64,000 nucleotides of DNA from an archaeon (GCA_043808705.1 JAZDEO010000013.1:8081-72080), one strand, 5' to 3'; counted from the first letter of the stretch, positions 1,685-63,715 are shown. Notes: generated by a model from the letters alone, not told the origin. Made by a program: numbers and translations.

Positions 1685-1772
1685 GGGCTCTTAGCTCAGC
1701 TTGGTAGATTTTATAGCCAAAAGCAACTGACTCTTAATCAGTAGGTCGCGGGTTCAAGTCCCGTAGAGCCCA
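1685..1772 (+). tRNA. tRNA-Lys (anticodon CTT) with putative 14-nt intron in D-arm (≈1709-1722)
   Basis: Acceptor stem GGGCTCT/AGAGCCC, discriminator A. Anticodon stem ACTGA/TCAGT with loop CTCTTAA, so anticodon CTT. T-arm GCGGG-TTCAAGT-CCCGT. D-stem GCTC pairs with GAGC only after removing TTTTATAGCCAAAA. TATA-like TTTAAATCT about 25-30 nt upstream. Confidence 0.8.
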
Positions 1773-5545: not shown

Positions 5546-7597
5546 CTATTGGCTGTTCTTCTCTAATTTTAATAAAGCATCCCACTCTTTATCAACATGT
5601 TCCTGTACTTTATCAAGAATCTTTTTATTTTCATCTTTTAGGAGATGTTTAAATCTTCCTTGAAGTTTTAAAAATTCAATTATAGGTAGTCTATTTTCAT
5701 TCTTATAATTTATAGTATATTTATTATTTTCAACCTCATATAAAGGCCAGAAATTAGTCTTAACAGCCAATTCAGCTATTTTAACAGCTAAATTTGTATC
5801 AAATCTCCATCCTAAAGTACAAGGTTGTAATACATTTATGAATGCAGGACCATTAGCATTAAAGGCCTTCTCAGCTTTATTATAGAGATCTATTAAATTA
5901 TTTAAAGAAGCTTGAGCAACATAAGGAATATTATGAGCAACAACAATTTTAGTTATATCTTTTCTAAATTTCTCTTTGCCTTGATGGAACTTTCCTACTG
6001 TTTCTGTTGTAGTATCAGCTCCAAAAGATGTTGCAGAACTTCTTTGAACTCCCGTATTATGAACTATAATCCCATTAGCAATAAAGTTATGTTCACCCTC
6101 AACTCTTAAATCTAATGTTGGTTCAACGCCTAACTGTTTAATATTTCTTACTTTTTCTATACTAAAATATTTATTTTCTATTAAGAAATTTTTGTATTTA
6201 TACTGATTTTTATATTTTTTAGTGTTCCATATTCCAAGTTTACTAAAGCACATATACCAATATTGTGTATCTTTTAATAATTTTCTATAAACCACAACTT
6301 TACCTTTTTTTATTTTTATATTATGTAATTTTCCAACTCTATAATTCATAGTTTGTAATAATAATCTTAATCTTTTAACTAGATCATAACTTGAAGAGGG
6401 ATATCTCCAACTTTCACCCATTTTATATCCATCAGATAACATTAACCCCTCTAAAAATTCTTCTTTTTCTTTCTTAGTTAATGTAAATATCCATGAAGGT
6501 ATTGTTTTATTTTTAGAACCTTTACCTAAACCCAGAGAATCAATGAACTTTACAACATTAATAGATCTTATATACACCTCATTCTTTGATTCTACCGGTT
6601 TAATTTTAAATACCTTCTTTATAAGATTGATTAGTACCTTTCTAGCTTTATCTTTTTCAGGTATAGCAAAAGCAACTTCTGCTTTTTCTGTTCTAGTCCA
6701 ACCATCACCTACCCACAAACCCAATAATTTCATTAAATCTTCATTTGATTTTTTAGGTATTTTTACTTTGTTAATTTTATTTACTTTATAATCACCTTTC
6801 TTAGAAATATTTATTGGTTCAAAAACGTATTTTTTACCTTCTTTCAAATCTTTTTGAACAACTAAATCATCCCCCATCTTAATATTCTCTAATCTTTTCC
6901 AAATAAACTCATTAGTATTACTACGTCCATTATGTTTTAAAACTAAAAAGGGATGATTTCCTGTAGCCTTAATATCGTGATGTAAGGTTGATAAACTATA
7001 AACTCTTTTTTTTCCATTATCAAAAACACCATCACATTTTTTTAAAACTAAATCATAATTTTTTTGATCAAAAGCATATACCATTTCACCTTTCTTTATT
7101 TCAGTTATTAATTTTAATCCTTTTTCAGTCAAAATTAGACTGTCCAAAGTTAAACAGTTCATATAAGCTTCATTATTATACAAAACATAAACAAATTTAT
7201 GTCCTCTTTCTAAAGCACCACTTAATGCCTGTAACCCAATATCATATGTGCCACCATCACCACCAAACGCAACAAAATTAATATCTTTTTTTATCTTATT
7301 TTTTTTCTTTAACACATTAAAAGCAGTTTCAACACCAGATATAGTTGAAGCTGCATTTTCAAATGCATTATGTATCCAAGGAACATTCCAGGAACTAAAA
7401 GGATATATGCTAGATGTAACCTCCAAGCACCCAGTAGCACAAGAAACAACAACAGGTTTTTTAGAAGTACTTAAAACAGTTCTAACTATTTGAGGAATAC
7501 CACAACCACTACATGTTCTATGACCAGAAACAAACTTTTTATTTACACTCTGATCATTTGCTAGTTCAATTATATTCATTTTAATTCTTAATATCAA
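5546..7597 (-). CDS. porB: pyruvate:ferredoxin oxidoreductase beta subunit (TPP-binding) interrupted by an intein
   Basis: Exteins: CSGCG…, [10 protein letters not shown], …NNEAYMN|TGVQRSS… (conserved Y-M-N-T-G motif is split). Spliced extein 316 aa, consistent with typical PorB size. Confidence 0.9.
6056..7156 (-). mobile_element. intein (367 aa) with LAGLIDADG homing-endonuclease domain inside porB
   Basis: Starts CLTLDS (block A), ends …GIIVHN followed by +1 Thr; internal [10 protein letters not shown] and [20 protein letters not shown] blocks; in-frame. Confidence 0.85.
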
Positions 7598-7600
7598 ATT

Positions 7601-8764
7601 TTAATCTGATTTCTCCCTTAAACCAATATATCTATTTTTTATTTTATCTGTTAATAATTCATTAAAAATATTTTTAATATTCTCTTCATGAACCTCTCTT
7701 CCACCAAGTCCATATATGTAACTATGTACTTTTGATTTCTTAAAATCATAAAGACTGTTTTTTATTTCACTATACAAAGGAGCATTAGCACCATATGATT
7801 CACTTCTATCCAAAACAGCAATATTCTTTAAATGTTTTAATACATTTCCTATTTCTTTATATGGAAAAGGCCTAAATAAATGTAATTTTAATAATCCGAC
7901 TTTTTTTCCATCCTTTCTCAAATCATCTATAACCTCTTTAACTGTTCCAGCAGTAGAATTTAGAACAATAATAGCTACATCAGCATCATTTAATTTATAA
8001 GATTCAAAATATCCATATTTTCTTTTAGTTATCTTGCTTAATTCTTTACAGATCTTTAAAAATTCTGTTTTAGATTTTTCAATAGAATCACTTAATTGTC
8101 TTCTTGTTTCAAAATAATAATCAAATAATTGTAAAGGTCCTATTGTTATAGGATTATCTACATCCAATAAACTATTCTCAATCTTCTTTTCACCAACAAA
8201 TCTTTTAACAATATTATCATTTAATAAATATATATTCTGCATACAATGGCTTGTTATAAAACCATCCTGCATAACCATAACAGGCAATTTTACTCTTTCA
8301 CTAAGTCTCATAGCTATTAAGTTAAACTCATATACCTCTTGGGCATCTTCACAGTAAATCTGAATCCATCCAGAATCTCTACAACCCATACTATCACTAT
8401 GATCACAATGTATGTTTAAAGGCCCTGATAAAGCCCTATTCGCTATGTTCATTACAATAGGTAATCTTAAACCAGAAGCTATAGGCAATAATTCCCACAT
8501 ATAAGCTAATCCAACAGAGCTTGTGGCAGTCATCACTCTAGCACCTGAAGCACTAGCACCTATACAAGCACTCATAGCACTATGTTCTGATTCAACTCTA
8601 ATCATTTCTCCATCTACTAAACCATCAGCTACAAATTTAGCATAATTTTCCACAATCTCTGTTTGAGGAGTAATAGGATAAGCAGCAACAACATCTAAAT
8701 TCATCTGTCTCATAGCTTCAGAAGCTGCTCCAGCACCATCTAAACCTTTTATCATTTTTATCAT
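7601..8764 (-). CDS. porA: pyruvate:ferredoxin oxidoreductase alpha subunit
   Basis: AAYPITPQTEIVE…; 387 aa; immediately upstream of porB. Confidence 0.9.
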   Translation of the reverse strand: MIKMIKGLDGAGAASEAMRQMNLDVVAAYPITPQTEIVENYAKFVADGLVDGEMIRVESEHSAMSACIGASASGARVMTATSSVGLAYMWELLPIASGLRLPIVMNIANRALSGPLNIHCDHSDSMGCRDSGWIQIYCEDAQEVYEFNLIAMRLSERVKLPVMVMQDGFITSHCMQNIYLLNDNIVKRFVGEKKIENSLLDVDNPITIGPLQLFDYYFETRRQLSDSIEKSKTEFLKICKELSKITKRKYGYFESYKLNDADVAIIVLNSTAGTVKEVIDDLRKDGKKVGLLKLHLFRPFPYKEIGNVLKHLKNIAVLDRSESYGANAPLYSEIKNSLYDFKKSKVHSYIYGLGGREVHEENIKNIFNELLTDKIKNRYIGLREKSD

Positions 8765-8776
8765 CTTATTTTGAGA

Positions 8777-9052
8777 TTATTTCTCTCCCTCCCTTTTGGC
8801 ACTTAAAGCCTTTACAGGGCAAACCTCAACACAAATCAAACACCCCTTGCAATAATCTAAGTTAGTTTCTAATCTCTTATTATTTTTTATAGGAATACAA
8901 TTATCAGGACAATAGATAACACATTTCATGCAATTAATACATTTCTTTGTATCTAAAACAGGTCTTAAAGATCTCCAAGATCCAGTTTTATAGTTCAAAC
9001 TAGATGCCTTTTCAGTTATACCACCAATCTTTATATCCTTCCACGATTTCAT
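8777..9052 (-). CDS. porD: pyruvate:ferredoxin oxidoreductase delta subunit (2x[4Fe-4S] ferredoxin)
   Basis: CINCMKCVIYCP…CKGCLICVEVCP. Confidence 0.85.
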   Translation of the reverse strand: MKSWKDIKIGGITEKASSLNYKTGSWRSLRPVLDTKKCINCMKCVIYCPDNCIPIKNNKRLETNLDYCKGCLICVEVCPVKALSAKREGEK

Positions 9053-9080: not shown

Positions 9081-9110
9081 TTACGCTATTTTACGCTATT
9101 TTACGCTATT
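9081..9110. repeat. 3 x 10-bp perfect tandem repeat (TTACGCTATT) spanning porG stop codon and 3' flank
   Basis: Seen directly: ttacgctatt ttacgctatt ttacgctatt at 9081-9110; first copies encode the C-terminal NSVK-stop of PorG. Confidence 0.9.
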
Positions 9111-9677
9111 ATATCCCTCTTCAAAAGCCTTAATATTGGCTTCAGTCTTTTCTTTTCCTAATTTTTCTAAAAAATGTTCTTTAACAATTTGGATCATAGT
9201 TTCTTTTTTTACAACATTCTTTATTTTTAATAAAGCCCCTAACATAATTATATTTGGAACATCTCTTCCTAAATTTCTTAAAGCAATATCAGTTGCATTA
9301 ACACTATAACTTTCATACTCGGGTCTTATTTTATATAATTCACAATTCTTATCTCTACATATATGGCATTCACTCTTGCAGTTTGCAATTATTACACATT
9401 TATCATGTAATGTTTTTCTAATATCAGCCTCATTTATTAAAGAAGAGTCAATAATCACAACAATTTCTGCATGTTTTATAGGAGCATAAGATTTTATCTT
9501 TCTATCAGCTATTTTCACATATGTTTTAACAGGTGCCCCAGCCCTTTCAGGCCCATATTCAGGAAACGCCTGTATATATTTTCCCTCTTTTAAAGCAGCT
9601 AAAGCTAACAAATGAGCAGCAGTCTTAGCACCATGACCACCCCTTCCATGTATCCTTATTTCTAGAATATCCTTCAT
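9096..9677 (-). CDS. porG: pyruvate:ferredoxin oxidoreductase gamma subunit
   Basis: IRIHGRGGHGAKTAAHLLALAA… ; classic porGDAB order. Confidence 0.85.
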   Translation of the reverse strand: MKDILEIRIHGRGGHGAKTAAHLLALAALKEGKYIQAFPEYGPERAGAPVKTYVKIADRKIKSYAPIKHAEIVVIIDSSLINEADIRKTLHDKCVIIANCKSECHICRDKNCELYKIRPEYESYSVNATDIALRNLGRDVPNIIMLGALLKIKNVVKKETMIQIVKEHFLEKLGKEKTEANIKAFEEGYNSVK

Positions 9678-34470: not shown

Positions 34471-37083
34471 ATGGGAATCAATATTTGGGAACTTTTCCCT
34501 AAAAAAGAAATTAAAATTAGTGATTTAAAAGGAAAAGTTTTAGCAGTAGACGCTAGTCCTGTTATCTATCAGTTTTTAGCTTCTATTAGGCAACGTGATG
34601 GAACACTTTTAATGGATTCTAAAGGAGAAATAACCAGCCATCTTATGGGTCTAAGTACTAGAATAACCAAATTAATGTCTGAAGGATTAAAATTGATATT
34701 CTGTTTTGATGGTCGTCCACCAGATCTAAAGATCCATGAAAGAGAAGAAAGAGAATATAGAAAGAGAATAGCAGAAAAAAAGCTAAAACAAGCTCAGAAA
34801 GAAGGAGATATAGAATCTATGTTAAAATATTCAAAACAAACAATCAGATTAAATGATAAAATTATTTCTGAATCAAAAGAGTTATTAAAAGCTTTAGGAA
34901 TCCCAGTAATTCAAGCAGTTTCAGAAGCTGAAGCACAATGCGCTTTTATTGCAGAGCAAGGAGATGCATGGGGTGTTGTTAGTCAAGATGCAGATACATT
35001 ATTATTCAGAGCACCAAGGTTAATTAGAAATCTTACTATTTCACAAAGAAAGAGATTACCTTCAGGTTCAGTAATACAAACTAAACCAGAGTTAATAGAA
35101 TTACAACAAACACTAAAACAACTTAAAATTAATCAAGATAGGTTAATTGCCTTAGGAATTCTTGTGGGAAGTGTTGATCATAACGAACCTACAATAATTA
35201 AAAATAGAGGCATAATACAAGTTAATCCTATAGGAGAATGCCCAATTAGTTCCCACTTAGAGGTTCCATGTTTCGATAAAAAAACAAAAAAAATTGTGTT
35301 TAAAAGAGTAAAAGGATTTATCAAACACAAGATCAATGAACCATTATATGAGATTACAACAGTATATAATAGGAAAGTAAAAGTAACAAAGTCTCATAGT
35401 CTTTTTATCAAAAATAGTGATAATAATATTACTGTGGTTAAAACCACAGATCTAAAAAAAGGAGATAAATTAGTTATACCTTTTAAAATACCATTTCAAA
35501 ATAAAAAAATAGATAAAATAAATCTAGCCCAAGAATTATGGAAACATAGAGATAAAATAAAGAGATTAACTTATTGTGATGGAAAAAATATACAAAAAAT
35601 AATCAAAGATAGATTATCAATTAAAAAAAGCAGATTATTTAATAAGAGATATATCTTAACTAAGTTTGGTCTAAAAAGATTAAAAGAATTAAGAATAAAC
35701 AAAGAAGTTACGACAATGAAGACACCATTAAGCTCTAACACACTTTATGGGTGGGAAAATGGATTAATCTCTCCAACAGAAACTAAGTTTAAAGAATATT
35801 TAAATTTTCTAGGATCAAATTTAAAAGAGTTTAATATAAATAACAATTGTATCAAAAGAATTAGAAATTCAGTTTTTGAGGAAAATATTTCTCCACGGAT
35901 GAACTACAAAAACAAATATAGACAAACAATATTATTTAAAACATTATCTAAAAAAGAAGTTAAGCTATTATCTCAGAAAGATTTTATTTATGGTAGAACA
36001 AGAGATACTAATCAAGTGTCATCAATATTAAAGATAACCTCAGAATTAATGAGGATTATTGGTTACTTTCTTGCTGAAGGCCATCTTAATGGTAACTATA
36101 GGATAAATTTTAGTTTTGCATTACCTTCTATAGGGCATGATGATTTTTGTGTAAATGACACAGTTTATTGCATAAAAAAAGTATTTAACATTAAACCAAA
36201 AGTTTACCACGAGAAATCTACAAGACACATTTGTTTAGATAATTGTGTGATTCATGATTTTTTTGCCTATGTTCTAGAATTGGAAAAACAAGGTTCAAAA
36301 AACAAAAAAATACCTTCTTTAATATTTAATGTAAGTCAAAAATTTCAGTTGGAGTTTTTAAAAGGACTTTTTTTAGGTGATGGAAGTATAGATAAAAACC
36401 ATATATCCTTTAATACAGCAAGTTATGACATGGCTATAGGTCTTTCTTACATCTTTTTGCAACAAGGTATTATTTCTTCCACTAGTTTTCAAAATAGAAA
36501 AAATAATAATATGAAACTTTTACATGTTTGTGGAAAGAACCAAATAACAAATATTAAAAAGATATGGGAAAAACATAATAAAGCTAAACGTCTAATTGAT
36601 TATTGTAAAAGACCACTAAAACAAAAACAAATTATTGATATAGAAGGAGATCTAGGATATGTTAAAATTAAATCTATTGTTAAAGTAAAACCCTTTAATA
36701 GCGAGGTATATGACTTTTCAGTAGACGGTGAAAATTTTATCGCCGGTTTTGGAGGGGTGTGTTGTCATAATACAGATTATAATATTGGTGGAGTAAGAAA
36801 AATTGGACCTAAGATAGGTTTAAAATTAGTACAACAAAACAAAGATCTCGATAAAATATTTGAAGAGGTCAAGGCAGAATTTGACTGGAAACAAATTTAT
36901 AACACTTTTATATCAATGCCTGTTACAAAAGATTATCAGTTAAAATGGAATCCAATAGATGAAGACAAAATAAAAGAAATTCTAATTGAAAAACATGATT
37001 TTAATAAAGAGAGAGTTGAAAAAACACTACAAAACTTAAGCACCAGGGATAAGAAACAATCATCCCTATCTGATTGGTCATAA
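34471..37083 (+). CDS. fen: flap endonuclease FEN-1 interrupted by a 534-aa intein
   Basis: N-terminal MGINIWELFPKKEI…AVDASPVIYQFLASIRQRDGTLLMDSKGEITSHLMGL (strong FEN-1 match). Exteins …ILVG | TDYNIGGVRKIGPKIG (H3TH motif split). Spliced extein 336 aa. Confidence 0.9.
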   Translation: MGINIWELFPKKEIKISDLKGKVLAVDASPVIYQFLASIRQRDGTLLMDSKGEITSHLMGLSTRITKLMSEGLKLIFCFDGRPPDLKIHEREEREYRKRIAEKKLKQAQKEGDIESMLKYSKQTIRLNDKIISESKELLKALGIPVIQAVSEAEAQCAFIAEQGDAWGVVSQDADTLLFRAPRLIRNLTISQRKRLPSGSVIQTKPELIELQQTLKQLKINQDRLIALGILVGSVDHNEPTIIKNRGIIQVNPIGECPISSHLEVPCFDKKTKKIVFKRVKGFIKHKINEPLYEITTVYNRKVKVTKSHSLFIKNSDNNITVVKTTDLKKGDKLVIPFKIPFQNKKIDKINLAQELWKHRDKIKRLTYCDGKNIQKIIKDRLSIKKSRLFNKRYILTKFGLKRLKELRINKEVTTMKTPLSSNTLYGWENGLISPTETKFKEYLNFLGSNLKEFNINNNCIKRIRNSVFEENISPRMNYKNKYRQTILFKTLSKKEVKLLSQKDFIYGRTRDTNQVSSILKITSELMRIIGYFLAEGHLNGNYRINFSFALPSIGHDDFCVNDTVYCIKKVFNIKPKVYHEKSTRHICLDNCVIHDFFAYVLELEKQGSKNKKIPSLIFNVSQKFQLEFLKGLFLGDGSIDKNHISFNTASYDMAIGLSYIFLQQGIISSTSFQNRKNNNMKLLHVCGKNQITNIKKIWEKHNKAKRLIDYCKRPLKQKQIIDIEGDLGYVKIKSIVKVKPFNSEVYDFSVDGENFIAGFGGVCCHNTDYNIGGVRKIGPKIGLKLVQQNKDLDKIFEEVKAEFDWKQIYNTFISMPVTKDYQLKWNPIDEDKIKEILIEKHDFNKERVEKTLQNLSTRDKKQSSLSDWS
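35170..36771 (+). mobile_element. intein with LAGLIDADG homing endonuclease inside fen
   Basis: Begins at Ser (SVDHN…), ends …GGVCCHN + Thr(+1); LAGLIDADG blocks IIGYFLAEGHLNG and FLKGLFLGDGSID; in-frame. Confidence 0.8.
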
Positions 37084-41429: not shown

Positions 41430-43853
41430 CTAATTAGACTTAATCTCAAATATACTCTTTTTTAATCTTATAGCAGAAGGAGTATCTCCCCCATGCCATG
41501 TTAATTTAGGTCTTGTTTTCATAGGATATATCCTCTCAGAGTTATCATCTAAAATAATTGCAGAACCTTTTATTTTAGGTAAATTATTCAAGTAACTTAA
41601 AATATCTCCTGTCAAATAACTTTGGGTTATTGAATTTAGAGCCTCAACATCAATCTTAGCAGTAACTCTAAAACTTACAACAATATCACTCTGAGTTAAA
41701 GCATCTTTAGCCAATTCACCAGGCTGTTGTGTTGCCATTACTAGACTTATTCCAGGTTGTCTCCCCTCTCTTAAAATCTGGATTAAAGCATCACTTGCAG
41801 GACTCTTTCCCTCTCGGGGGAGGAACTCGTGACATTCGTCTATTAAAATCCAAACAAGAGGCATATCACTCTTTTTAGTTTCAAGTTCAAAATAATGCTG
41901 CCCTTCTTCTATCAAATTCATTTCTTCTAATTTTCTAGCATCCATTCTTTCTCTTAACAGTTTACTTCCTAATAACCCTATAACCAGGCATTTAATATTC
42001 CAATCAGTATAACAACTAATATCTAATATTGAAACTTCTCCAGCCTTAATAATGTCTTTAATTTTAGTGCTATCCTTATCAAATAAACCCCATAATTTTG
42101 AAGAATTAAATCTGTTTTCAACAGCATTTTTTACATTAGCATCAGATTTCTTATCTTTTAAAAGTTCTTTAATTATGTCATCAACATCATAATCCTTTCC
42201 AGTATCTTTTAAATTTCCAATTACCCTTTCAATTAAAACACCCTTGTCATCCATTAAACCAATACTAAAAACATTACACCAATCTAAAGAAGTTAATTCA
42301 GAGGGTTTTATTGAAAAATTAAAGTCTGTAGGAATATTTTTCTCTTTATATTCCTGAAACTTTCCCTTAGGAGTATAAACTTTAACATTCAAGCCTTGAG
42401 GTTTTAATCCATATCTCTTTAATTCATCCTCCTGTTTTAAATTAGGATATTTCATACTCCAAAATATTCCCATAGTATCTAAAATTAAAACAGCCAGATT
42501 CTTTTTAACATCATCATCCAATCTCGTTACTTCTTCAGCTATTACAGATAAAAAATAACTTTTTCCAGAATTATGCGAAATAATACCATTAGCTACAAAA
42601 GAATGATTTTTGTTTACAGATAGATCATAAACTTCTTTTATATCTTTTATTTTTTGGATATCTTTTATTTTTCTACAAACTAAATTATTAGACAAATAAA
42701 ATGTTTTTTTTCTTCTAAACCCATCTATTTTTTTATTATTCAATCTTTCCTGCTTAAAATTATTGAAGAAGCCTATTTTTTTAAAATTATTATTTGAAGC
42801 ATTATCTGTGATAAACAGTCTATAATTTAAGTACATTTTATTATTACATCTAGCATTTTTTTCTCTTATAACAGATTCTATATTAAAATGACTTAACAAA
42901 AGTTGTAAATCCTCTAAAAATTCTTTCGATTTTGAGGAATAATCAATATGACCCCCCTTACTTATATAACCATCACATGAAAATAAAGCTGAAATAAAAT
43001 TTGCTTTAAATGTATTTGAACTTTCCCAAACAATCTTCGGGATTCTAATTATACCCGATTTATTTCCTAAAGGAACACCTAGTTTATTTAATCTATCAAT
43101 CACAGGAGCATGAAGTGATTGAATAACCTCACAATTACAATCATTTCTTTTATATCTTTTTGAATGTAAACCAAATTCTTCTTCGAGATCTTTTTTTGCT
43201 AAATCTAAGACTTCAAGACAATCATTATATATTCTTAATCTACTCTTTGTTCCATTATACCAAGCACCTCTTCCATCTTTCCATCTACCTCTCCTTTTAT
43301 TAATTGTTCCATCAGATAAAACAAAACCCAATAGTCTAGCTATTCTTAAACTTTCTTTATCATTTTTTACTTCTGGTAACTCAGTAGGCATAATTATTTT
43401 ATCATTAATTTTTAATTGCTGAGCCATCCTCCAAAATATATATTTGCCATAATTCATGAGTAAAGGATGTTCATTTGTTAAAATTATTGATCTTCCATCA
43501 TAGAATTCTAATTTTAATAAGTGTTCTTTTATATCATATTTTAAAAGTTCTGCATTTTCCCATTCAAATTTTTTATTTTTTTTATCAAATGAAAATACTT
43601 TATCTTCTTTCTCATTAAAGTCCTTTATATTTTTATATCCCTTATCTGTAAAAACTTTAGTCTCTCCACTAAGACACCCCCTTTTTCCTGAAATCAAAAT
43701 TATATGAGAACTGTTAACATCTAAGTAAATATCACTTCCAAGAGAAGTTGTCTGCCCCATCTTAACATAACTCTTTCCAATAAAAATAAGGCCTTTGTTT
43801 CCATATTTCTTCATATCAACTTCATTTCTTCCAATAATTATGTTATGAACCAT
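41430..43853 (-). CDS. HerA/FtsK-superfamily DUF87-like ATPase interrupted by an intein in the P-loop
   Basis: Exteins …HIILISGKRG | SGKSYFLSVIAEE give Walker A GKRGSGKS. Walker B VWILIDECHEF, MATQQPGEL. Spliced extein 438 aa. Confidence 0.75.
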   Translation of the reverse strand: MVHNIIIGRNEVDMKKYGNKGLIFIGKSYVKMGQTTSLGSDIYLDVNSSHIILISGKRGCLSGETKVFTDKGYKNIKDFNEKEDKVFSFDKKNKKFEWENAELLKYDIKEHLLKLEFYDGRSIILTNEHPLLMNYGKYIFWRMAQQLKINDKIIMPTELPEVKNDKESLRIARLLGFVLSDGTINKRRGRWKDGRGAWYNGTKSRLRIYNDCLEVLDLAKKDLEEEFGLHSKRYKRNDCNCEVIQSLHAPVIDRLNKLGVPLGNKSGIIRIPKIVWESSNTFKANFISALFSCDGYISKGGHIDYSSKSKEFLEDLQLLLSHFNIESVIREKNARCNNKMYLNYRLFITDNASNNNFKKIGFFNNFKQERLNNKKIDGFRRKKTFYLSNNLVCRKIKDIQKIKDIKEVYDLSVNKNHSFVANGIISHNSGKSYFLSVIAEEVTRLDDDVKKNLAVLILDTMGIFWSMKYPNLKQEDELKRYGLKPQGLNVKVYTPKGKFQEYKEKNIPTDFNFSIKPSELTSLDWCNVFSIGLMDDKGVLIERVIGNLKDTGKDYDVDDIIKELLKDKKSDANVKNAVENRFNSSKLWGLFDKDSTKIKDIIKAGEVSILDISCYTDWNIKCLVIGLLGSKLLRERMDARKLEEMNLIEEGQHYFELETKKSDMPLVWILIDECHEFLPREGKSPASDALIQILREGRQPGISLVMATQQPGELAKDALTQSDIVVSFRVTAKIDVEALNSITQSYLTGDILSYLNNLPKIKGSAIILDDNSERIYPMKTRPKLTWHGGDTPSAIRLKKSIFEIKSN
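42570..43676 (-). mobile_element. intein (369 aa) with LAGLIDADG endonuclease in HerA-like ATPase P-loop
   Basis: CLSGETKVFT (block A) … ANGIISHN + Ser(+1); LAGLIDADG blocks LLGFVLSDGTIN, FISALFSCDGYIS. Confidence 0.85.
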
Positions 43854-60595: not shown

Positions 60596-63500
60596 ATGAC
60601 AGAACAAAAAAATGCAAATGAACTAGCAAAAGAATTTAGATCAGTAAGTGTTTCAGACTTTTTTGCCAGAAACAGACATCTTCTTGGCTATGATAATCCA
60701 ATAAAGGCATTGTTAACAGTAATTAAAGAGGGTGTTGATAATTCTGTTGATGCATGTGAGGAAGCTGGAATTCTTCCAGATGTTTATATAGAAATAAAAC
60801 AATTAAATGAAACAAGATTTATTATTATTCTAGAGGATAATGGCCCGGGAATTGTTAAGAAACATATTCCAAATGTTTTTGCATCTTTGCTTTATGGAAC
60901 AAAATTCCATAGGTTAAGACAAAGTAGAGGAGTCCAAGGTATTGGTATTTCTTCTGCTGTTTTATATGCTCAATTAACAACAGCCAAGCCAACAAAGATA
61001 TGGTCTAAAATAGATGGAAATAATAAAGCATTTTATTATGAGCTTCATATTAACACTCAAAAAAATGAGCCAGAAATAGTTAAAGAAGAAGATATTGATT
61101 GGCCTAATAAAAAAACAGGCATTAAAATAGAACTAGAAATAGAAGCAAAATACCAGAAAGGTCAGCAATCAGTAGATCAATATTTAAAACAGACAGCAAT
61201 AGCAAACCCCCATCTTCAAATTACTTATATAAGTCCACTTGGTGAAAAATTAGAATTTCCTAGAGCAACAAAAGAGCTTCCAAAAGAGCCTAAAAGAATA
61301 AGTCCTCATCCTTATGGTATTGAACTGGGCATTTTAATGAAAATGCTTAGTGATACAAAACATGGAAAATTATCAAGTTTTTTGCAAAATGAATTCTGTA
61401 GGGTTTCTCCAAATGTTTCAAAAGAGATTTGTGAAAAAGCAAGCCTTCCTGAAAATTCCAGACCCTCAAGAATAGCAAGGCAGGAAGCTGAAAAATTATT
61501 TAAAGCAATTCAGGAAACAAAAATAATGGCTCCTCCTACAGATTGTTTAAGCCCTATAGGTCAAGAGCTTTTAGAAAAAGGTCTTAAAAAAGAGATTAAT
61601 GCTGATTTTTATGCATCAGTAACAAGAAGCCCCTCTGTTTATAGAGGTAATCCATTCCAGATTGAATGTTGTACAGGAGATACAAAATTAATATCAGAAG
61701 AAGGCGGTATCTTAAATATAAAAGATTTTGTAGAAAATAAGATTAACAAAAAAGTTTTTGCTATGGATTCTAATCTAAAAATTAGACCTGTAAAAGTAAT
61801 TGCTTGGCACAAATTTAAAAATAAACATAAAATACTTAAAATAAAAACTAAATCTGGTAGAAGTTTAAAAATTACTGACAATAATCAACTACCAATTATT
61901 GAAAATGGAGAAATTATATGGAAAGAATCTAAAGATGTAATGGCTGGTGATTTTATCGCTTCTCCTAGAAAGTATAATATAAAAGGCTATGTGCCTAATA
62001 TTTTGGATTTATTTAAAGAAAATGAAAAAGATATTCAAATTTGTGACAAAGAAATTATTATTTTAGTTTTAGACCTATTAAAAAATAAGTTTAGTTCTTT
62101 AAAAAAATCCTCAAAGAAACTGAATATTGATTATGATTATTTTAAAGCAATGTATAGAAAAGGGAATTCTACAAAACCTTCTTTAGATTTATTTAAAAGA
62201 ATGTGTACTTTAGCAGAATTAAAGGATAATTTTATTTATAACATAAAAAAGATTAGGTTTGTTAATAATAGATTTAAGAACCCTAAATCAATAAACATCC
62301 CAAAAATAAATGAAGACCTGTTTTATGTTTTAGGATTATTAAATTCAGATGGTTTCATTTCTAAGAAGTTAGTATCTTTTGTTAATAAGGATGAATATTT
62401 ACATAGTCTATATTCTTTAAAGATTTATCAACTATTTGGTTTAAAAACTAAAAGATATAATATTAATTCTAGTATTTACAATAAGACTTTATCTGAAGTT
62501 CTTAATAGACTTGAAAAAATAATTTGTAAACTTCCAGATTATTTAGTAATAGCTTGGTTGAAAGGATTTGTTGATGGAGATGGTTGGGTTAATTTAAAAG
62601 ATGGAGTAATAAAAAGAATAGGTATTACTACAGCAAAAGAAGAGAAAGCAGAATTTACACAATTTTTACTATTAAGATTAGGTATAATCTCCAAAATTGA
62701 AAGAAAAGGGGTTTCTAATTGTCAAGGTAATATAAATGGAAGAATTATTAAAACATTAAAACCACAGTATAATATCATTATCAGAGATTTTGAAAATATT
62801 AACAAATTTTCTTTATTAATATCTTTTAGGCAATTAAATAGATCACATTTATTATCTAAAGGATTGATTAAACAACTTAAACACTTAAAAGACATTGTAC
62901 CTTTAGGCAAACTCTTAAAAAGATTTAGAGAAGAAAACAATTTATATCAATATGAATTAGGTTTTTCTGATGATAATATAAGGAGTATTGAGAAAGGCAA
63001 TTATCATATTGGACGAGGAAATCTGCAGAAGATTATTGAACTTCAAAATTATTCTAGTGACTCCTTTGAAAAATTGAAAAATTTAGCTTATTCAGATGTA
63101 TTATGGGATAAGATTACTGATATTGAGTTAGTAGAAAATGAAAATTATGTTTATGATTTAACTACAGAAGTTGGTAATTTTGTTGCAGACAATATTATAA
63201 TGCATAACTGTGCTATAGCCTATGGAGGAGACATAGAAAAAGAGGATGTAATAAGATTATTGAGATTTGCAAATAGAGTTCCTTTACTTTATCAGAAAGG
63301 GGCATGTGCTGTTACAAGAGCAGTAGGTGAAACAAATTGGAAACAATATGGATTACAACAATCAGGAAAAAATCTACCTGTAGGTCCAATTGTCTTAGTT
63401 GTTCATATAGCATCAGTATGGGTCCCATTCACATCAGAGGCTAAAGAAGCAATAGCTCATTATCCTGAAATAATCAAGGAAATAAAACTTGCTTTACAGG

Positions 63501-63715
63501 AATGTGGAAGACAATTAGGAATTTACATTAGAAAACATATCAAAGCTAAAGAACAAAAAGAAAAAGCAAATTTGTTTGAAAAATACATTCCTGAATTAGC
63601 ATCATCACTTTCAAATTTAACAGGCGACAAAAAAGATAAGATAGAGGAAGATCTATTAAAGATATTAAAGAAAGGAATTCCAGAAATAGAAGAAAATGGA
63701 CAAATCGAAAAATAA
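60596..63715 (+). CDS. top6B: DNA topoisomerase VI subunit B interrupted by a 514-aa intein
   Basis: GHKL/Bergerat ATPase (VDNSVDACEEAG…ILEDNGPGI…LLYGTKFH). Exteins …GNPFQIE | CAIAYGGDIE. Spliced extein 525 aa. Confidence 0.9.
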   Translation: MTEQKNANELAKEFRSVSVSDFFARNRHLLGYDNPIKALLTVIKEGVDNSVDACEEAGILPDVYIEIKQLNETRFIIILEDNGPGIVKKHIPNVFASLLYGTKFHRLRQSRGVQGIGISSAVLYAQLTTAKPTKIWSKIDGNNKAFYYELHINTQKNEPEIVKEEDIDWPNKKTGIKIELEIEAKYQKGQQSVDQYLKQTAIANPHLQITYISPLGEKLEFPRATKELPKEPKRISPHPYGIELGILMKMLSDTKHGKLSSFLQNEFCRVSPNVSKEICEKASLPENSRPSRIARQEAEKLFKAIQETKIMAPPTDCLSPIGQELLEKGLKKEINADFYASVTRSPSVYRGNPFQIECCTGDTKLISEEGGILNIKDFVENKINKKVFAMDSNLKIRPVKVIAWHKFKNKHKILKIKTKSGRSLKITDNNQLPIIENGEIIWKESKDVMAGDFIASPRKYNIKGYVPNILDLFKENEKDIQICDKEIIILVLDLLKNKFSSLKKSSKKLNIDYDYFKAMYRKGNSTKPSLDLFKRMCTLAELKDNFIYNIKKIRFVNNRFKNPKSINIPKINEDLFYVLGLLNSDGFISKKLVSFVNKDEYLHSLYSLKIYQLFGLKTKRYNINSSIYNKTLSEVLNRLEKIICKLPDYLVIAWLKGFVDGDGWVNLKDGVIKRIGITTAKEEKAEFTQFLLLRLGIISKIERKGVSNCQGNINGRIIKTLKPQYNIIIRDFENINKFSLLISFRQLNRSHLLSKGLIKQLKHLKDIVPLGKLLKRFREENNLYQYELGFSDDNIRSIEKGNYHIGRGNLQKIIELQNYSSDSFEKLKNLAYSDVLWDKITDIELVENENYVYDLTTEVGNFVADNIIMHNCAIAYGGDIEKEDVIRLLRFANRVPLLYQKGACAVTRAVGETNWKQYGLQQSGKNLPVGPIVLVVHIASVWVPFTSEAKEAIAHYPEIIKEIKLALQECGRQLGIYIRKHIKAKEQKEKANLFEKYIPELASSLSNLTGDKKDKIEEDLLKILKKGIPEIEENGQIEK
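61667..63208 (+). mobile_element. intein with LAGLIDADG endonuclease in top6B
   Basis: CCTGDTKLISEEG (block A) … DNIIMHN + Cys(+1); LAGLIDADG blocks LGLLNSDGFIS, WLKGFVDGDGWVN. Confidence 0.85.

What the first reader, a model, noticed from the sequence alone, without database searches (positions are those of the whole stretch)
5546..7597. Intein with homing endonuclease inside a central-metabolism enzyme (PorB, TPP-binding subunit)
Inteins almost always sit in replication, repair or transcription proteins. This 367-aa in-frame insertion bisects the conserved …EAYMN|TGVQ… TPP-region motif of pyruvate:ferredoxin oxidoreductase beta. Its terminal residues are canonical (Cys1 … His-Asn, then Thr+1), and it carries two LAGLIDADG blocks. 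Without it the extein is 316 aa, the normal PorB length. An intein in a metabolic enzyme is rare, and it would make pyruvate oxidation depend on protein splicing.
Basis: partly seen in the sequence, partly recalled or inferred. Interest (0 to 1): 0.65.

Follow-up and report, generated by a model that had tools for sequence, protein, structure and literature searches.

The report
Mobile intein inside PorB enzyme subunit
A standard self-splicing intein with its own homing endonuclease interrupts the cofactor-binding site of a pyruvate/2-oxoacid:ferredoxin oxidoreductase beta subunit in a small archaeon; the host gene is unusual for an intein, but the same intein is common in public metagenomes and looks like an ordinary selfish element.

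Summary
ORF 5546..7597 (-) encodes a 683-aa PorB-like protein. A 367-aa in-frame insert (aa 148-514, window 6056..7156) splits ...NNEAYMN|TGVQRS... Removing it restores an ungapped match to a solved PFOR beta subunit. The insert passes the Intein_splicing and LAGLIDADG_3 models. It has Cys1, block B T-x-x-H, block F/G ...His-Asn, Thr+1 and two LAGLIDADG motifs with their acidic residues. Its model (pLDDT 90.8) matches endonuclease-containing VMA inteins.

It is not rare. At least 119 protein clusters carry the same intein at the same site, and some are already auto-named "POR beta subunit/intein/homing endonuclease". No paper describing it was found. It occurs in archaeal contigs and in bacterial ones (dnaX-recR beside the por operon), and in a VorB-type paralogue.

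Empty sites, full inteins, a copy with decayed endonuclease motifs and mini-inteins all occur. Syntenic genome pairs differ only by the intein. The endonuclease is under purifying selection (omega about 0.05), and intein relationships conflict with extein relationships.

Verdict: a canonical, probably still mobile, class-1 LAGLIDADG intein in an uncommon host. It is a new member of a known kind, of moderate interest. Splicing and cleavage remain untested.

The parts
5546..7597 (-). Whole porB-like gene (precursor: N-extein + intein + C-extein + stop). TTG start at 7597; the more likely start is the ATG at 7579.
7157..7597 (-). N-extein (aa 1-147). Holds the Cys ligands C29, C32 and C57 and the first part of the TPP-binding fold; ends ...NNEAYMN.
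7172..7261 (-). TPP/Mg-binding motif GDG-x26-NN (aa 113-142). The intein begins 5 residues after it.
   Evidence: The alignment to D. africanus PFOR places the -1 Asn at Asn996.
6056..7156 (-). Intein, 367 aa (aa 148-514).
7118..7156 (-). Intein block A with the Cys1 nucleophile ([13 protein letters not shown]).
   Evidence: Cys1 present in 120/120 homologues
6944..6985 (-). Intein block B ([14 protein letters not shown]) with T212 and H215 (T-x-x-H).
   Evidence: T, N and H invariant in 120/120
6233..6775 (-). LAGLIDADG homing-endonuclease domain (approx. aa 275-455), nested in the splicing domain.
   Evidence: Pfam LAGLIDADG_3; helices in the model; this stretch is deleted in the mini-inteins L014 and L016
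6698..6727 (-). LAGLIDADG motif 1, [10 protein letters not shown], putative catalytic Asp298.
   Evidence: G297 D298 G299 W300 invariant
6425..6457 (-). LAGLIDADG motif 2, [11 protein letters not shown], putative catalytic Asp389.
   Evidence: S388 and G390-Y391 invariant; D389 in at least 90%
6056..6118 (-). Intein blocks F and G ([21 protein letters not shown]): F-block Asp496 and His503, penultimate His513, terminal Asn514.
   Evidence: invariant in 120/120 for H513 and N514; TIGR01443 hit
5546..6055 (-). C-extein (aa 515-683 plus stop). Starts with Thr+1 (6053-6055): TGVQRSS...
7601..8764 (-). porA-like alpha subunit, same operon, no intein.
8777..9052 (-). porD-like delta subunit (2x[4Fe-4S] ferredoxin).
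9096..9677 (-). porG/porC-like gamma subunit.

Best explanation
This is a canonical class-1 intein with a nested two-motif LAGLIDADG homing endonuclease. It sits in the beta (TPP-binding) subunit of a four-subunit pyruvate/2-oxoacid:ferredoxin oxidoreductase of an intein-rich, low-GC archaeon whose PorB groups with Woesearchaeota-labelled alleles.

Inferred mechanism: the gene is translated as a precursor of about 680 aa. Cys148 makes an N-S acyl shift. Thr515 attacks the thioester to give a branched intermediate. Asn514 cyclises and releases the intein. An O-N shift then leaves a normal peptide bond, restoring ...EAYMN-TGVQRS..., the loop that follows the GDG-x-NN thiamine-pyrophosphate/Mg motif. 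Its Asn corresponds to the substrate-pocket Asn996 of D. africanus PFOR. The precursor is therefore expected to be inactive, and POR activity to need splicing.

At the DNA level the free intein's endonuclease is expected to cut intein-free porB alleles at the conserved ...GCN TAY ATG AAY|ACN GGN... site. Repair from the occupied allele would then copy the intein in (homing).

The element behaves as a selfish mobile element. It circulates among PorB and VorB-type genes of anaerobic Archaea and Bacteria and keeps its place because it sits in a site the host cannot change.

Shown: the anatomy, the conserved residues, the fold, the distribution and the selection. Inferred: splicing, cleavage and homing.
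For: Domain models pass their cutoffs: Intein_splicing 61.5 bits, LAGLIDADG_3 26.8 bits, intein_Cterm 31.3 bits.

Excising aa 148-514 gives an ungapped alignment to the solved PFOR beta subunit 9bt4_C (E 2.4e-71), which reads NEAYMNTGIQRSS at the junction.

Cys1, block B T-x-N-H, the terminal His-Asn and Thr+1 are present in 120/120 aligned sequences. GDGW in LAGLIDADG motif 1 is invariant; in motif 2 (SDGY) S, G and Y are invariant and the Asp is present in at least 90%.

The AlphaFold model has pLDDT 90.8 and pTM 0.88. Its best structural matches are endonuclease-containing inteins: TliVMA 7qsu (E 5e-22, TM 0.74), PhoVMA, PI-PkoII and PI-SceI.

Evidence for mobility:
- In GTDB representatives the same site is empty in 60 loci, holds a full intein (361-368 aa) in 12, and holds a mini-intein lacking the endonuclease in L014 (162 aa) and L016 (203 aa). 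P0126 has decayed LAGLIDADG motifs.
- Intein presence needs 9 or more changes on a 70-tip extein tree.
- The syntenic pairs L003/L065 (bacterial) and L013/L022 (archaeal) are collinear over their shared length and differ only by the 1.1-kb intein, with exteins 90% and 83% identical.
- L009's VorB-type extein is 41-45% identical to the others, but its intein splicing domain is 63-71% identical.
- Purifying selection on the endonuclease: omega 0.054, against 0.063 for the extein, in the unsaturated pair L004/L005. Mean dN is 0.342 for the endonuclease and 0.456 for the extein.

The window has three more LAGLIDADG inteins, so this host tolerates inteins.
Against: No experiment: splicing, endonuclease activity and homing are inferred from sequence.

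TIGR01445 intein_Nterm is just under its cutoff (23.4 vs 24.5).

The 120 homologues were retrieved with a query that included the intein, which inflates apparent intein conservation.

dS is saturated for all but one pair, so omega rests on a single comparison.

The trees are neighbour-joining on short alignments, without support values.

Taxon labels of MAG contigs are unreliable. Bacterial context was verified only for L003, L016, L001 and L004.

No related intein was found in viral contigs that could act as a vector.
Confidence: 0.88

Rival explanations
1. Domesticated or regulatory intein. Splicing is conditional (for example gated by redox state, oxygen or temperature), so the intein serves the host as a post-translational switch on an oxygen-sensitive central enzyme. 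That service, rather than homing, is why it is so well conserved.
For: The intein, including its endonuclease, is as conserved as the host enzyme: mean pairwise identity 0.646 vs 0.620, with dN lower than the extein. Two internal cysteines are invariant or nearly so (intein C41 and C303), and the nucleophile is a Cys that could in principle be trapped in a disulfide. Conditional splicing is documented for other inteins, e.g. P. horikoshii RadA (PMC4513877, listed).
Against: Close relatives do without it: syntenic empty and occupied pairs have 83-91% identical exteins. Mini-inteins and a copy with decayed endonuclease motifs exist. The distribution is patchy across two domains and two paralogues. 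A regulatory role would not need the endonuclease's catalytic Asp residues, which are conserved. No cysteine lies near the junction in the N-extein, and nothing here tests conditionality.
Confidence: 0.06
2. Resident relic. The intein still splices, but its endonuclease is no longer active in this lineage, and the element is simply inherited vertically because precise loss is hard.
For: The LAGLIDADG_3 score is modest (26.8 bits, E 6e-6). This copy's endonuclease region is somewhat more diverged from the family (0.564 identity to the others, family mean 0.642). Endonuclease-dead and endonuclease-less versions exist at this site.
Against: Both motif Asp residues and the surrounding invariant positions are intact in this copy. 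The ORF is uninterrupted. The family shows strong purifying selection on the endonuclease.
Confidence: 0.2
3. Non-splicing insertion, pseudogene or assembly artefact. The insert permanently disrupts PorB and the operon is non-functional, or the junction is a chimeric assembly.
For: The public record of this genome calls the gene from Met146 as a 538-aa 'hypothetical protein', leaving the N-extein out of that product (P0001).
Against: The reading frame is continuous through both junctions. All splicing residues are present. More than a hundred independent assemblies have the same architecture. The extein keeps its TPP motif and Fe-S cysteines and evolves under purifying selection in intein-bearing alleles. 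The truncated gene call looks like a gene-caller start-site choice.
Confidence: 0.02

Closest known systems
Endonuclease-associated VMA inteins of Thermococcales (TliVMA 7qsu/7qss, PhoVMA 7qst) and PI-SceI (S. cerevisiae VMA1 intein)
   Same: Same overall architecture: a HINT splicing domain with a nested two-motif LAGLIDADG endonuclease. Best structural matches to the model (E 5e-22, TM 0.74). Same class-1 chemistry, with Cys1 and a C-terminal His-Asn.
   Different: Only 13-20% sequence identity. The host there is the V/A-ATPase catalytic subunit, not a TPP enzyme. The +1 residue here is Thr. No PI-SceI-like DNA-recognition region was assessed.
Ssp DnaB intein (1mi8) and other DnaB inteins
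   Same: Closest solved relatives of the splicing domain by sequence (E 2.9e-10; blocks A/B and F/G align, ending ...HNFVANDIIVHN). NCBIfam also picks up intein-containing DnaB.
   Different: The host is a replicative helicase. The solved forms are mini-inteins with the endonuclease removed.
Intein-containing SufB (P0124 here)
   Same: The nearest non-POR relative of this intein in the 1.84-billion-protein search is a two-intein SufB (253 bits, 31% identity). SufB is also a non-replicative host linked to Fe-S and anaerobic metabolism.
   Different: Different host and site. There is a clear score gap (442 vs 253 bits) separating the POR intein family from it.
Inteins in other metabolic enzymes (recalled from InBase: M. 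jannaschii PEP synthase, GlmS-type aminotransferase and UDP-glucose dehydrogenase; P. abyssi MoaA). From memory, not checked here.
   Same: They show that inteins do occur in non-replicative enzymes, typically at cofactor- or substrate-binding motifs. Reviews state this in general terms (PMC7765530).
   Different: None of these hosts is a 2-oxoacid:ferredoxin oxidoreductase. I found no paper describing a POR or VOR intein. InBase itself could not be consulted.

Membership tests
Intein (HINT superfamily, class 1) | In-frame insertion whose precise removal restores a contiguous, conserved host protein | tested here: met
   The spliced sequence aligns ungapped to 9bt4_C and 5c4i_C across NEAYMN|TG(I/V)QRSS. 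60 intein-free orthologues have exactly this junction.
Intein (HINT superfamily, class 1) | Nucleophile (Cys/Ser) at intein position 1 | tested here: met
   Cys148, present in 120/120
Intein (HINT superfamily, class 1) | Block B T-x-x-H | tested here: met
   T212-G-N-H215; T, N and H invariant in 120/120
Intein (HINT superfamily, class 1) | Blocks F/G with a terminal (His-)Asn and Cys/Ser/Thr at +1 | tested here: met
   ...[19 protein letters not shown]|T. H513, N514 and T515 in 120/120. TIGR01443 31.3 bits, above its 15.6 cutoff.
Intein (HINT superfamily, class 1) | Curated profile match | tested here: met
   PF14890 61.5 bits, above 35.8. TIGR01445 (N-terminal region) is marginally below cutoff, 23.4 vs 24.5.
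Intein (HINT superfamily, class 1) | HINT fold | tested here: met
   Model with pLDDT 90.8 matches intein structures (7qsu, 2cw7, 1vde, 1mi8, 1am2), all at probability 1.00. This is a predicted, not solved, structure.
Intein (HINT superfamily, class 1) | Autocatalytic protein splicing | not testable with these tools
   Needs expression of the precursor and detection of the products.
LAGLIDADG homing endonuclease (two-motif, intein-nested) | Two LAGLIDADG motifs, each ending in an acidic residue | tested here: met
   LLGLWVGD298GW and FLEGLMLSD389GY. D298 is invariant and D389 is in at least 90%.
LAGLIDADG homing endonuclease (two-motif, intein-nested) | Curated profile match | tested here: met
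   PF14528 26.8 bits, above 22.5. The match is modest.
LAGLIDADG homing endonuclease (two-motif, intein-nested) | Signs of mobility: empty and occupied alleles in related genomes, and incongruent intein and host relationships | tested here: met
   Syntenic pairs L003/L065 and L013/L022 differ only by the intein. 9 or more changes on the extein tree. L009 extein 0.43 vs intein 0.71 identity to L014.
LAGLIDADG homing endonuclease (two-motif, intein-nested) | Site-specific double-strand cleavage of the intein-free allele | not testable with these tools
   Needs an in-vitro cleavage assay.
PorB (pyruvate synthase / POR beta subunit) | TPP-binding GDG-x(25-30)-NN motif in a TPP_enzyme_C fold | tested here: met
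   G113-D-G...N141-N142; PF02775 53.6 bits
PorB (pyruvate synthase / POR beta subunit) | Cysteine ligands of the proximal [4Fe-4S] cluster | tested here: met
   C29, C32, C57 and C593 are conserved. CSGCG aligns to the same motif of D. africanus PFOR. Their assignment as cluster ligands rests on general knowledge of the PFOR structure.
PorB (pyruvate synthase / POR beta subunit) | Score above the curated equivalog cutoff (NF008819) | tested here: not met
   Spliced extein scores 358.7 bits, below 405. PorB is still the best-scoring model (VorB-type 311.5). It is therefore filed as 'PorB-like 2-oxoacid:ferredoxin oxidoreductase beta'.
PorB (pyruvate synthase / POR beta subunit) | Operon with gamma, delta and alpha subunits | tested here: met
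   porG 9096-9677, porD 8777-9052, porA 7601-8764, all on the minus strand directly upstream

The most novel reading that the evidence does not exclude
The POR intein is more than a parasite: its splicing is conditional (for example blocked by oxidation of Cys1 or of the invariant internal cysteines). In that case these oxygen-sensitive, genome-reduced anaerobes would hold a pool of inactive PorB precursor and release active enzyme only under reducing conditions. This would be a post-translational redox gate on the entry point of pyruvate into acetyl-CoA metabolism, spread between Archaea and Bacteria by homing.
Probability: 0.06. Interest if true: 0.7.

Novelty: new member of a known kind. 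Interest (0 to 1): 0.38.

Why it matters
It adds a well-populated intein allele in an energy-metabolism enzyme to a catalogue dominated by replication and repair proteins.

The family shows every stage of the homing cycle at one site: empty, full, decayed and mini.

The same intein sits in verified archaeal and bacterial gene neighbourhoods and in two paralogous enzymes (PorB-type and VorB-type). That makes it a convenient natural system for studying intein transfer between domains in anaerobic communities.

There are practical consequences. Gene callers can truncate such genes: the public record for this gene is a 538-aa 'hypothetical protein'. Metabolic reconstructions of DPANN or candidate-phyla genomes could therefore wrongly score POR as absent or broken.

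The compact Thr+1 intein and its 162-aa natural mini-version could also interest protein engineers.

Tried and rejected
Literature: nine full-text searches (intein with pyruvate ferredoxin oxidoreductase, ferredoxin oxidoreductase, pyruvate synthase, oxoacid, thiamine pyrophosphate, DPANN and Woesearchaeota, plus a general one) found no description of a POR intein. The hits used both words in unrelated contexts. The supplement of the main intein survey is not held.

Viral vector: a scan of IMG/VR with the intein alignment found only short block F/G-level matches, with no close relative.

Intragenomic spread: the four inteins of the window are only 25-35% identical over partial alignments, so they are independent acquisitions and not copies of each other.

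Foreign composition: the intein GC (25.4%) is close to the extein (30.1%) and the window (28.5%), so there is no sign of recent arrival.

dN/dS across all pairs: dS is saturated for nearly all pairs, and only L004/L005 gave a usable omega.

Source contig: the look-up of the public protein P0001 returned nothing.

L011 looked like a broken intein gene, but the break follows a run of N, an assembly gap, so it was not counted as a pseudogene.

A second large protein search with the spliced extein, to measure how often the site is occupied, was considered and not run. The GTDB scan already showed both states among close relatives.

Full report
1. WHAT IS THERE

The ORF at 5546..7597 on the minus strand (683 aa from a TTG) is real. 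It is the last gene of a porG (9096-9677), porD (8777-9052), porA (7601-8764), porB operon. Translation shows a 367-aa in-frame insert, aa 148-514 (window 6056..7156). It begins with Cys, ends with His-Asn and is followed by Thr. It splits ...[10 protein letters not shown]|TGVQRSS....

The 316-aa extein length holds if counting starts at the TTG. Homologues begin at the position of the ATG at 7579, which gives 310 aa spliced and 677 aa unspliced, in line with the 672-680 aa of the relatives.

The window is archaeal: Topo VI, MCM, family-B polymerase, FEN1 and CDC48 are present, and GC is 28.5%. In an extein tree this PorB groups mainly with alleles from Woesearchaeota-labelled MAGs.

2. IS IT AN INTEIN?

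Yes, by every test available.

- Pfam Intein_splicing: E 1e-16, 61.5 bits against a 35.8 cutoff.
- LAGLIDADG_3: 26.8 bits against 22.5.
- NCBIfam intein_Cterm: 31.3 bits against 15.6.
- intein_Nterm misses narrowly, 23.4 against 24.5.

With the insert removed, the protein aligns without a gap to the solved PFOR beta subunit 9bt4_C (E 2.4e-71), which reads NEAYMNTGIQRSS at the junction, and to oxalate oxidoreductase beta 5c4i_C.

On its own the insert finds the Ssp DnaB intein through blocks A/B and F/G, and finds PI-PkoII through its central part.

In an alignment with 119 homologues, Cys1, block B T-x-N-H, the terminal His-Asn and Thr+1 are present in all 120 sequences. In a 31-sequence subset the block F Asp and His and the GDGW of LAGLIDADG motif 1 are invariant; in motif 2 (SDGY) S, G and Y are invariant and the Asp is present in at least 90%.

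An AlphaFold model built on 17 inteins is confident (pLDDT 90.8, pTM 0.88). Its best matches in the PDB are endonuclease-containing inteins: TliVMA 7qsu (E 5e-22, TM 0.74), PhoVMA, PI-PkoII and PI-SceI. Mini-inteins match the splicing half.

3. WHERE IN THE ENZYME?

The insertion lies five residues after the NN of the GDG-x-NN thiamine-pyrophosphate/Mg motif. In the alignment to D. africanus PFOR, the residue before the intein corresponds to Asn996. That residue lines the pyruvate pocket and rotates on substrate binding. Its counterpart in Sulfolobus OFOR influences substrate specificity (PMC5020499).

A 367-aa domain at this point should prevent formation of the active site. The statement that activity depends on splicing is therefore a sound inference, though untested.

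The host protein keeps its TPP motif and its four conserved cysteines. It is best described as PorB-like. PorB is the top NCBIfam model for the spliced sequence, but at 358.7 bits it is under the 405-bit equivalog cutoff.

4. HOW COMMON IS IT?

It is common. A search of 5.8 billion proteins returned 667 hits. Of the best 120, 119 are proteins of roughly 647-702 aa carrying the TPP and intein domains, at 55-65% identity. They come largely from DPANN-labelled MAGs (Woesearchaeota, Nanoarchaeota, Aenigmarchaeota). Several were named by JGI [quoted passage not shown], and one was tagged by UniRef as a DOD-type homing endonuclease.

The remaining hit is this very gene in GenBank. It is called from Met146 as a 538-aa hypothetical protein, so that product lacks the N-extein.

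Searching the intein alone against 1.84 billion cluster representatives shows a discrete family: 442 bits and 55% identity for the POR representatives, then a drop to 253 bits and 31% for a two-intein SufB. Further relatives sit in a T4-type portal protein, ClpP and a subtilase.

I found no paper that describes a POR intein. The principal survey reports 66.9% of archaeal intein hosts in COG category L and 8.3% in F (PMC4760082). The host is therefore unusual, but not unprecedented in kind.

5. IS IT MOBILE?

The evidence says yes.

It found 12 complete full-size inteins (361-368 aa) at exactly this site. It also found two mini-inteins that are clean deletions of the endonuclease (L014, 162 aa; L016, 203 aa) and 60 intein-free genes with the intact target ...EAYMNTG(I/V)QRSS. 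A copy with decayed LAGLIDADG motifs also exists (P0126).
- On a 70-tip extein tree the 14 intein-bearing tips need at least 9 gains or losses. Random placement gives a mean of 13.
- Four sister pairs differ in occupancy while their exteins are 83-91% identical. For L003/L065 and L013/L022 the flanking genes are collinear and the only discontinuity is the 1.1-kb intein.
- L003 (full intein) and L016 (mini-intein) have dnaX and recR directly upstream of porGDAB. L001 has a bacterial metK, and L004 a bacterial-type glmM. The element is therefore in genuine bacterial contigs as well as archaeal ones.
- L009's host passes the VorB-type model rather than the PorB model. Its extein is only 41-45% identical to the rest, while its intein splicing domain is 63-71% identical and clusters with L013 and L014. 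This means the intein moved between divergent hosts.
- The target DNA...GCN TAY ATG AAY|ACN GGN..., is fixed at almost all non-synonymous positions in both empty and occupied alleles. That explains how one endonuclease can serve so many hosts.

6. SELECTION

Across the 120 proteins the intein is as conserved as the enzyme: mean pairwise identity is 0.646 for the intein, 0.642 for the endonuclease part and 0.620 for the extein. One caveat is that the intein was part of the query used to find these proteins.

In the only pair with unsaturated synonymous divergence (L004/L005), omega is 0.054 for the endonuclease, 0.074 for the splicing domain and 0.063 for the extein. Over all pairs, dN is lower in the intein than in the extein.

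A maintained endonuclease together with coexisting empty, occupied and degraded alleles is what the homing-cycle model predicts.

7. ALTERNATIVES

- A regulatory, conditionally splicing intein cannot be excluded. The high conservation and the invariant internal cysteines fit it. But it is unnecessary and sits badly with the many closely related intein-free genomes. I give it about 6%.
- This particular copy may have a dead endonuclease (about 20%, and compatible with the main account).
- A pseudogene or assembly artefact is effectively excluded.

8. VERDICT

The feature is a textbook class-1 LAGLIDADG intein in an uncommon host. It is already abundant in public data and recognised by automatic annotation, but apparently not described in the literature I could search.

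It is a new member of a known kind. The points that add interest are the distribution across two domains and two paralogues, the complete set of homing-cycle stages, and a second intein site in the same enzyme (see the items noticed in passing). Interest is moderate.

Noticed in passing
window 34471..37083 (+), 41430..43853 (-), 60596..63715 (+): Three more genes in this 64-kb window carry inteins with LAGLIDADG endonucleases: FEN1/XPG (870 aa, intein ends ...CCHN|T at aa 767), a HerA/DUF87 helicase (807 aa, 369-aa intein GKRG|CLSGETKV...ISHN|S) and Topo VI subunit B (1039 aa, 514-aa intein FQIE|CCTGDTKL...IMHN|C). That makes four inteins in 64 kb. They are only 25-35% identical to each other. 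PolB, MCM, CDC48 and GlmS in the window are intein-free.
   Followed up: partly
proteins P0125 and P0129 (from; not in the window): Some PorB homologues carry two inteins. One is at the site studied here. The other is inside the GDG motif itself (...GDGG|CYS(E/N)DTEI...SLNGN|SYDIG...), has its own LAGLIDADG domain and a penultimate Gly instead of His. PorB therefore has at least two intein insertion sites, both in the TPP-binding motif.
   Followed up: partly
window 5546..7597 (-); protein P0001: The GenBank record of this genome annotates the gene as a 538-aa 'hypothetical protein' (V1663_01840) starting at Met146, two residues before the intein. That product lacks the N-extein, and POR beta could be missed in metabolic reconstructions.
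   Followed up: partly
L014:5950-7407 and L016:5929-7506; protein P0126: Natural mini-inteins of 162 aa (in a Nanoarchaeia MAG) and 203 aa (on a bacterial contig with dnaX-recR) sit at the same PorB site. A 307-aa version has decayed LAGLIDADG motifs (IASGQ, TNTNG). The 162-aa form retains all the splicing blocks.
   Followed up: yes
L009:1492-3468: The same intein family, at the same motif, sits in a beta subunit that passes the VorB-type (3-methyl-2-oxobutanoate) model rather than the PorB model. The intein has crossed between paralogous 2-oxoacid oxidoreductases.
   Followed up: yes
window 6056..7156 (-): intein residues C41 (aa 188) and C303 (aa 450): Two internal cysteines of the intein are invariant (C41) or nearly invariant (C303) across the family. 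They are not among the standard intein catalytic blocks, and their role is unexplained.
   Followed up: no
window 1685..1772 (+): ARAGORN calls an 88-nt tRNA-Ala (anticodon AGC), while Rfam matches only 1698-1764 and model positions 9-63. The gene may contain an intron or be atypical.
   Followed up: no
window 7579..7616 (-): The start codon of porB is ambiguous. A GGGAG lies about 14 nt upstream of the TTG at 7597, yet homologues align from the ATG at 7579. The porA stop (7601-7603) is only 3 nt from the TTG.
   Followed up: partly
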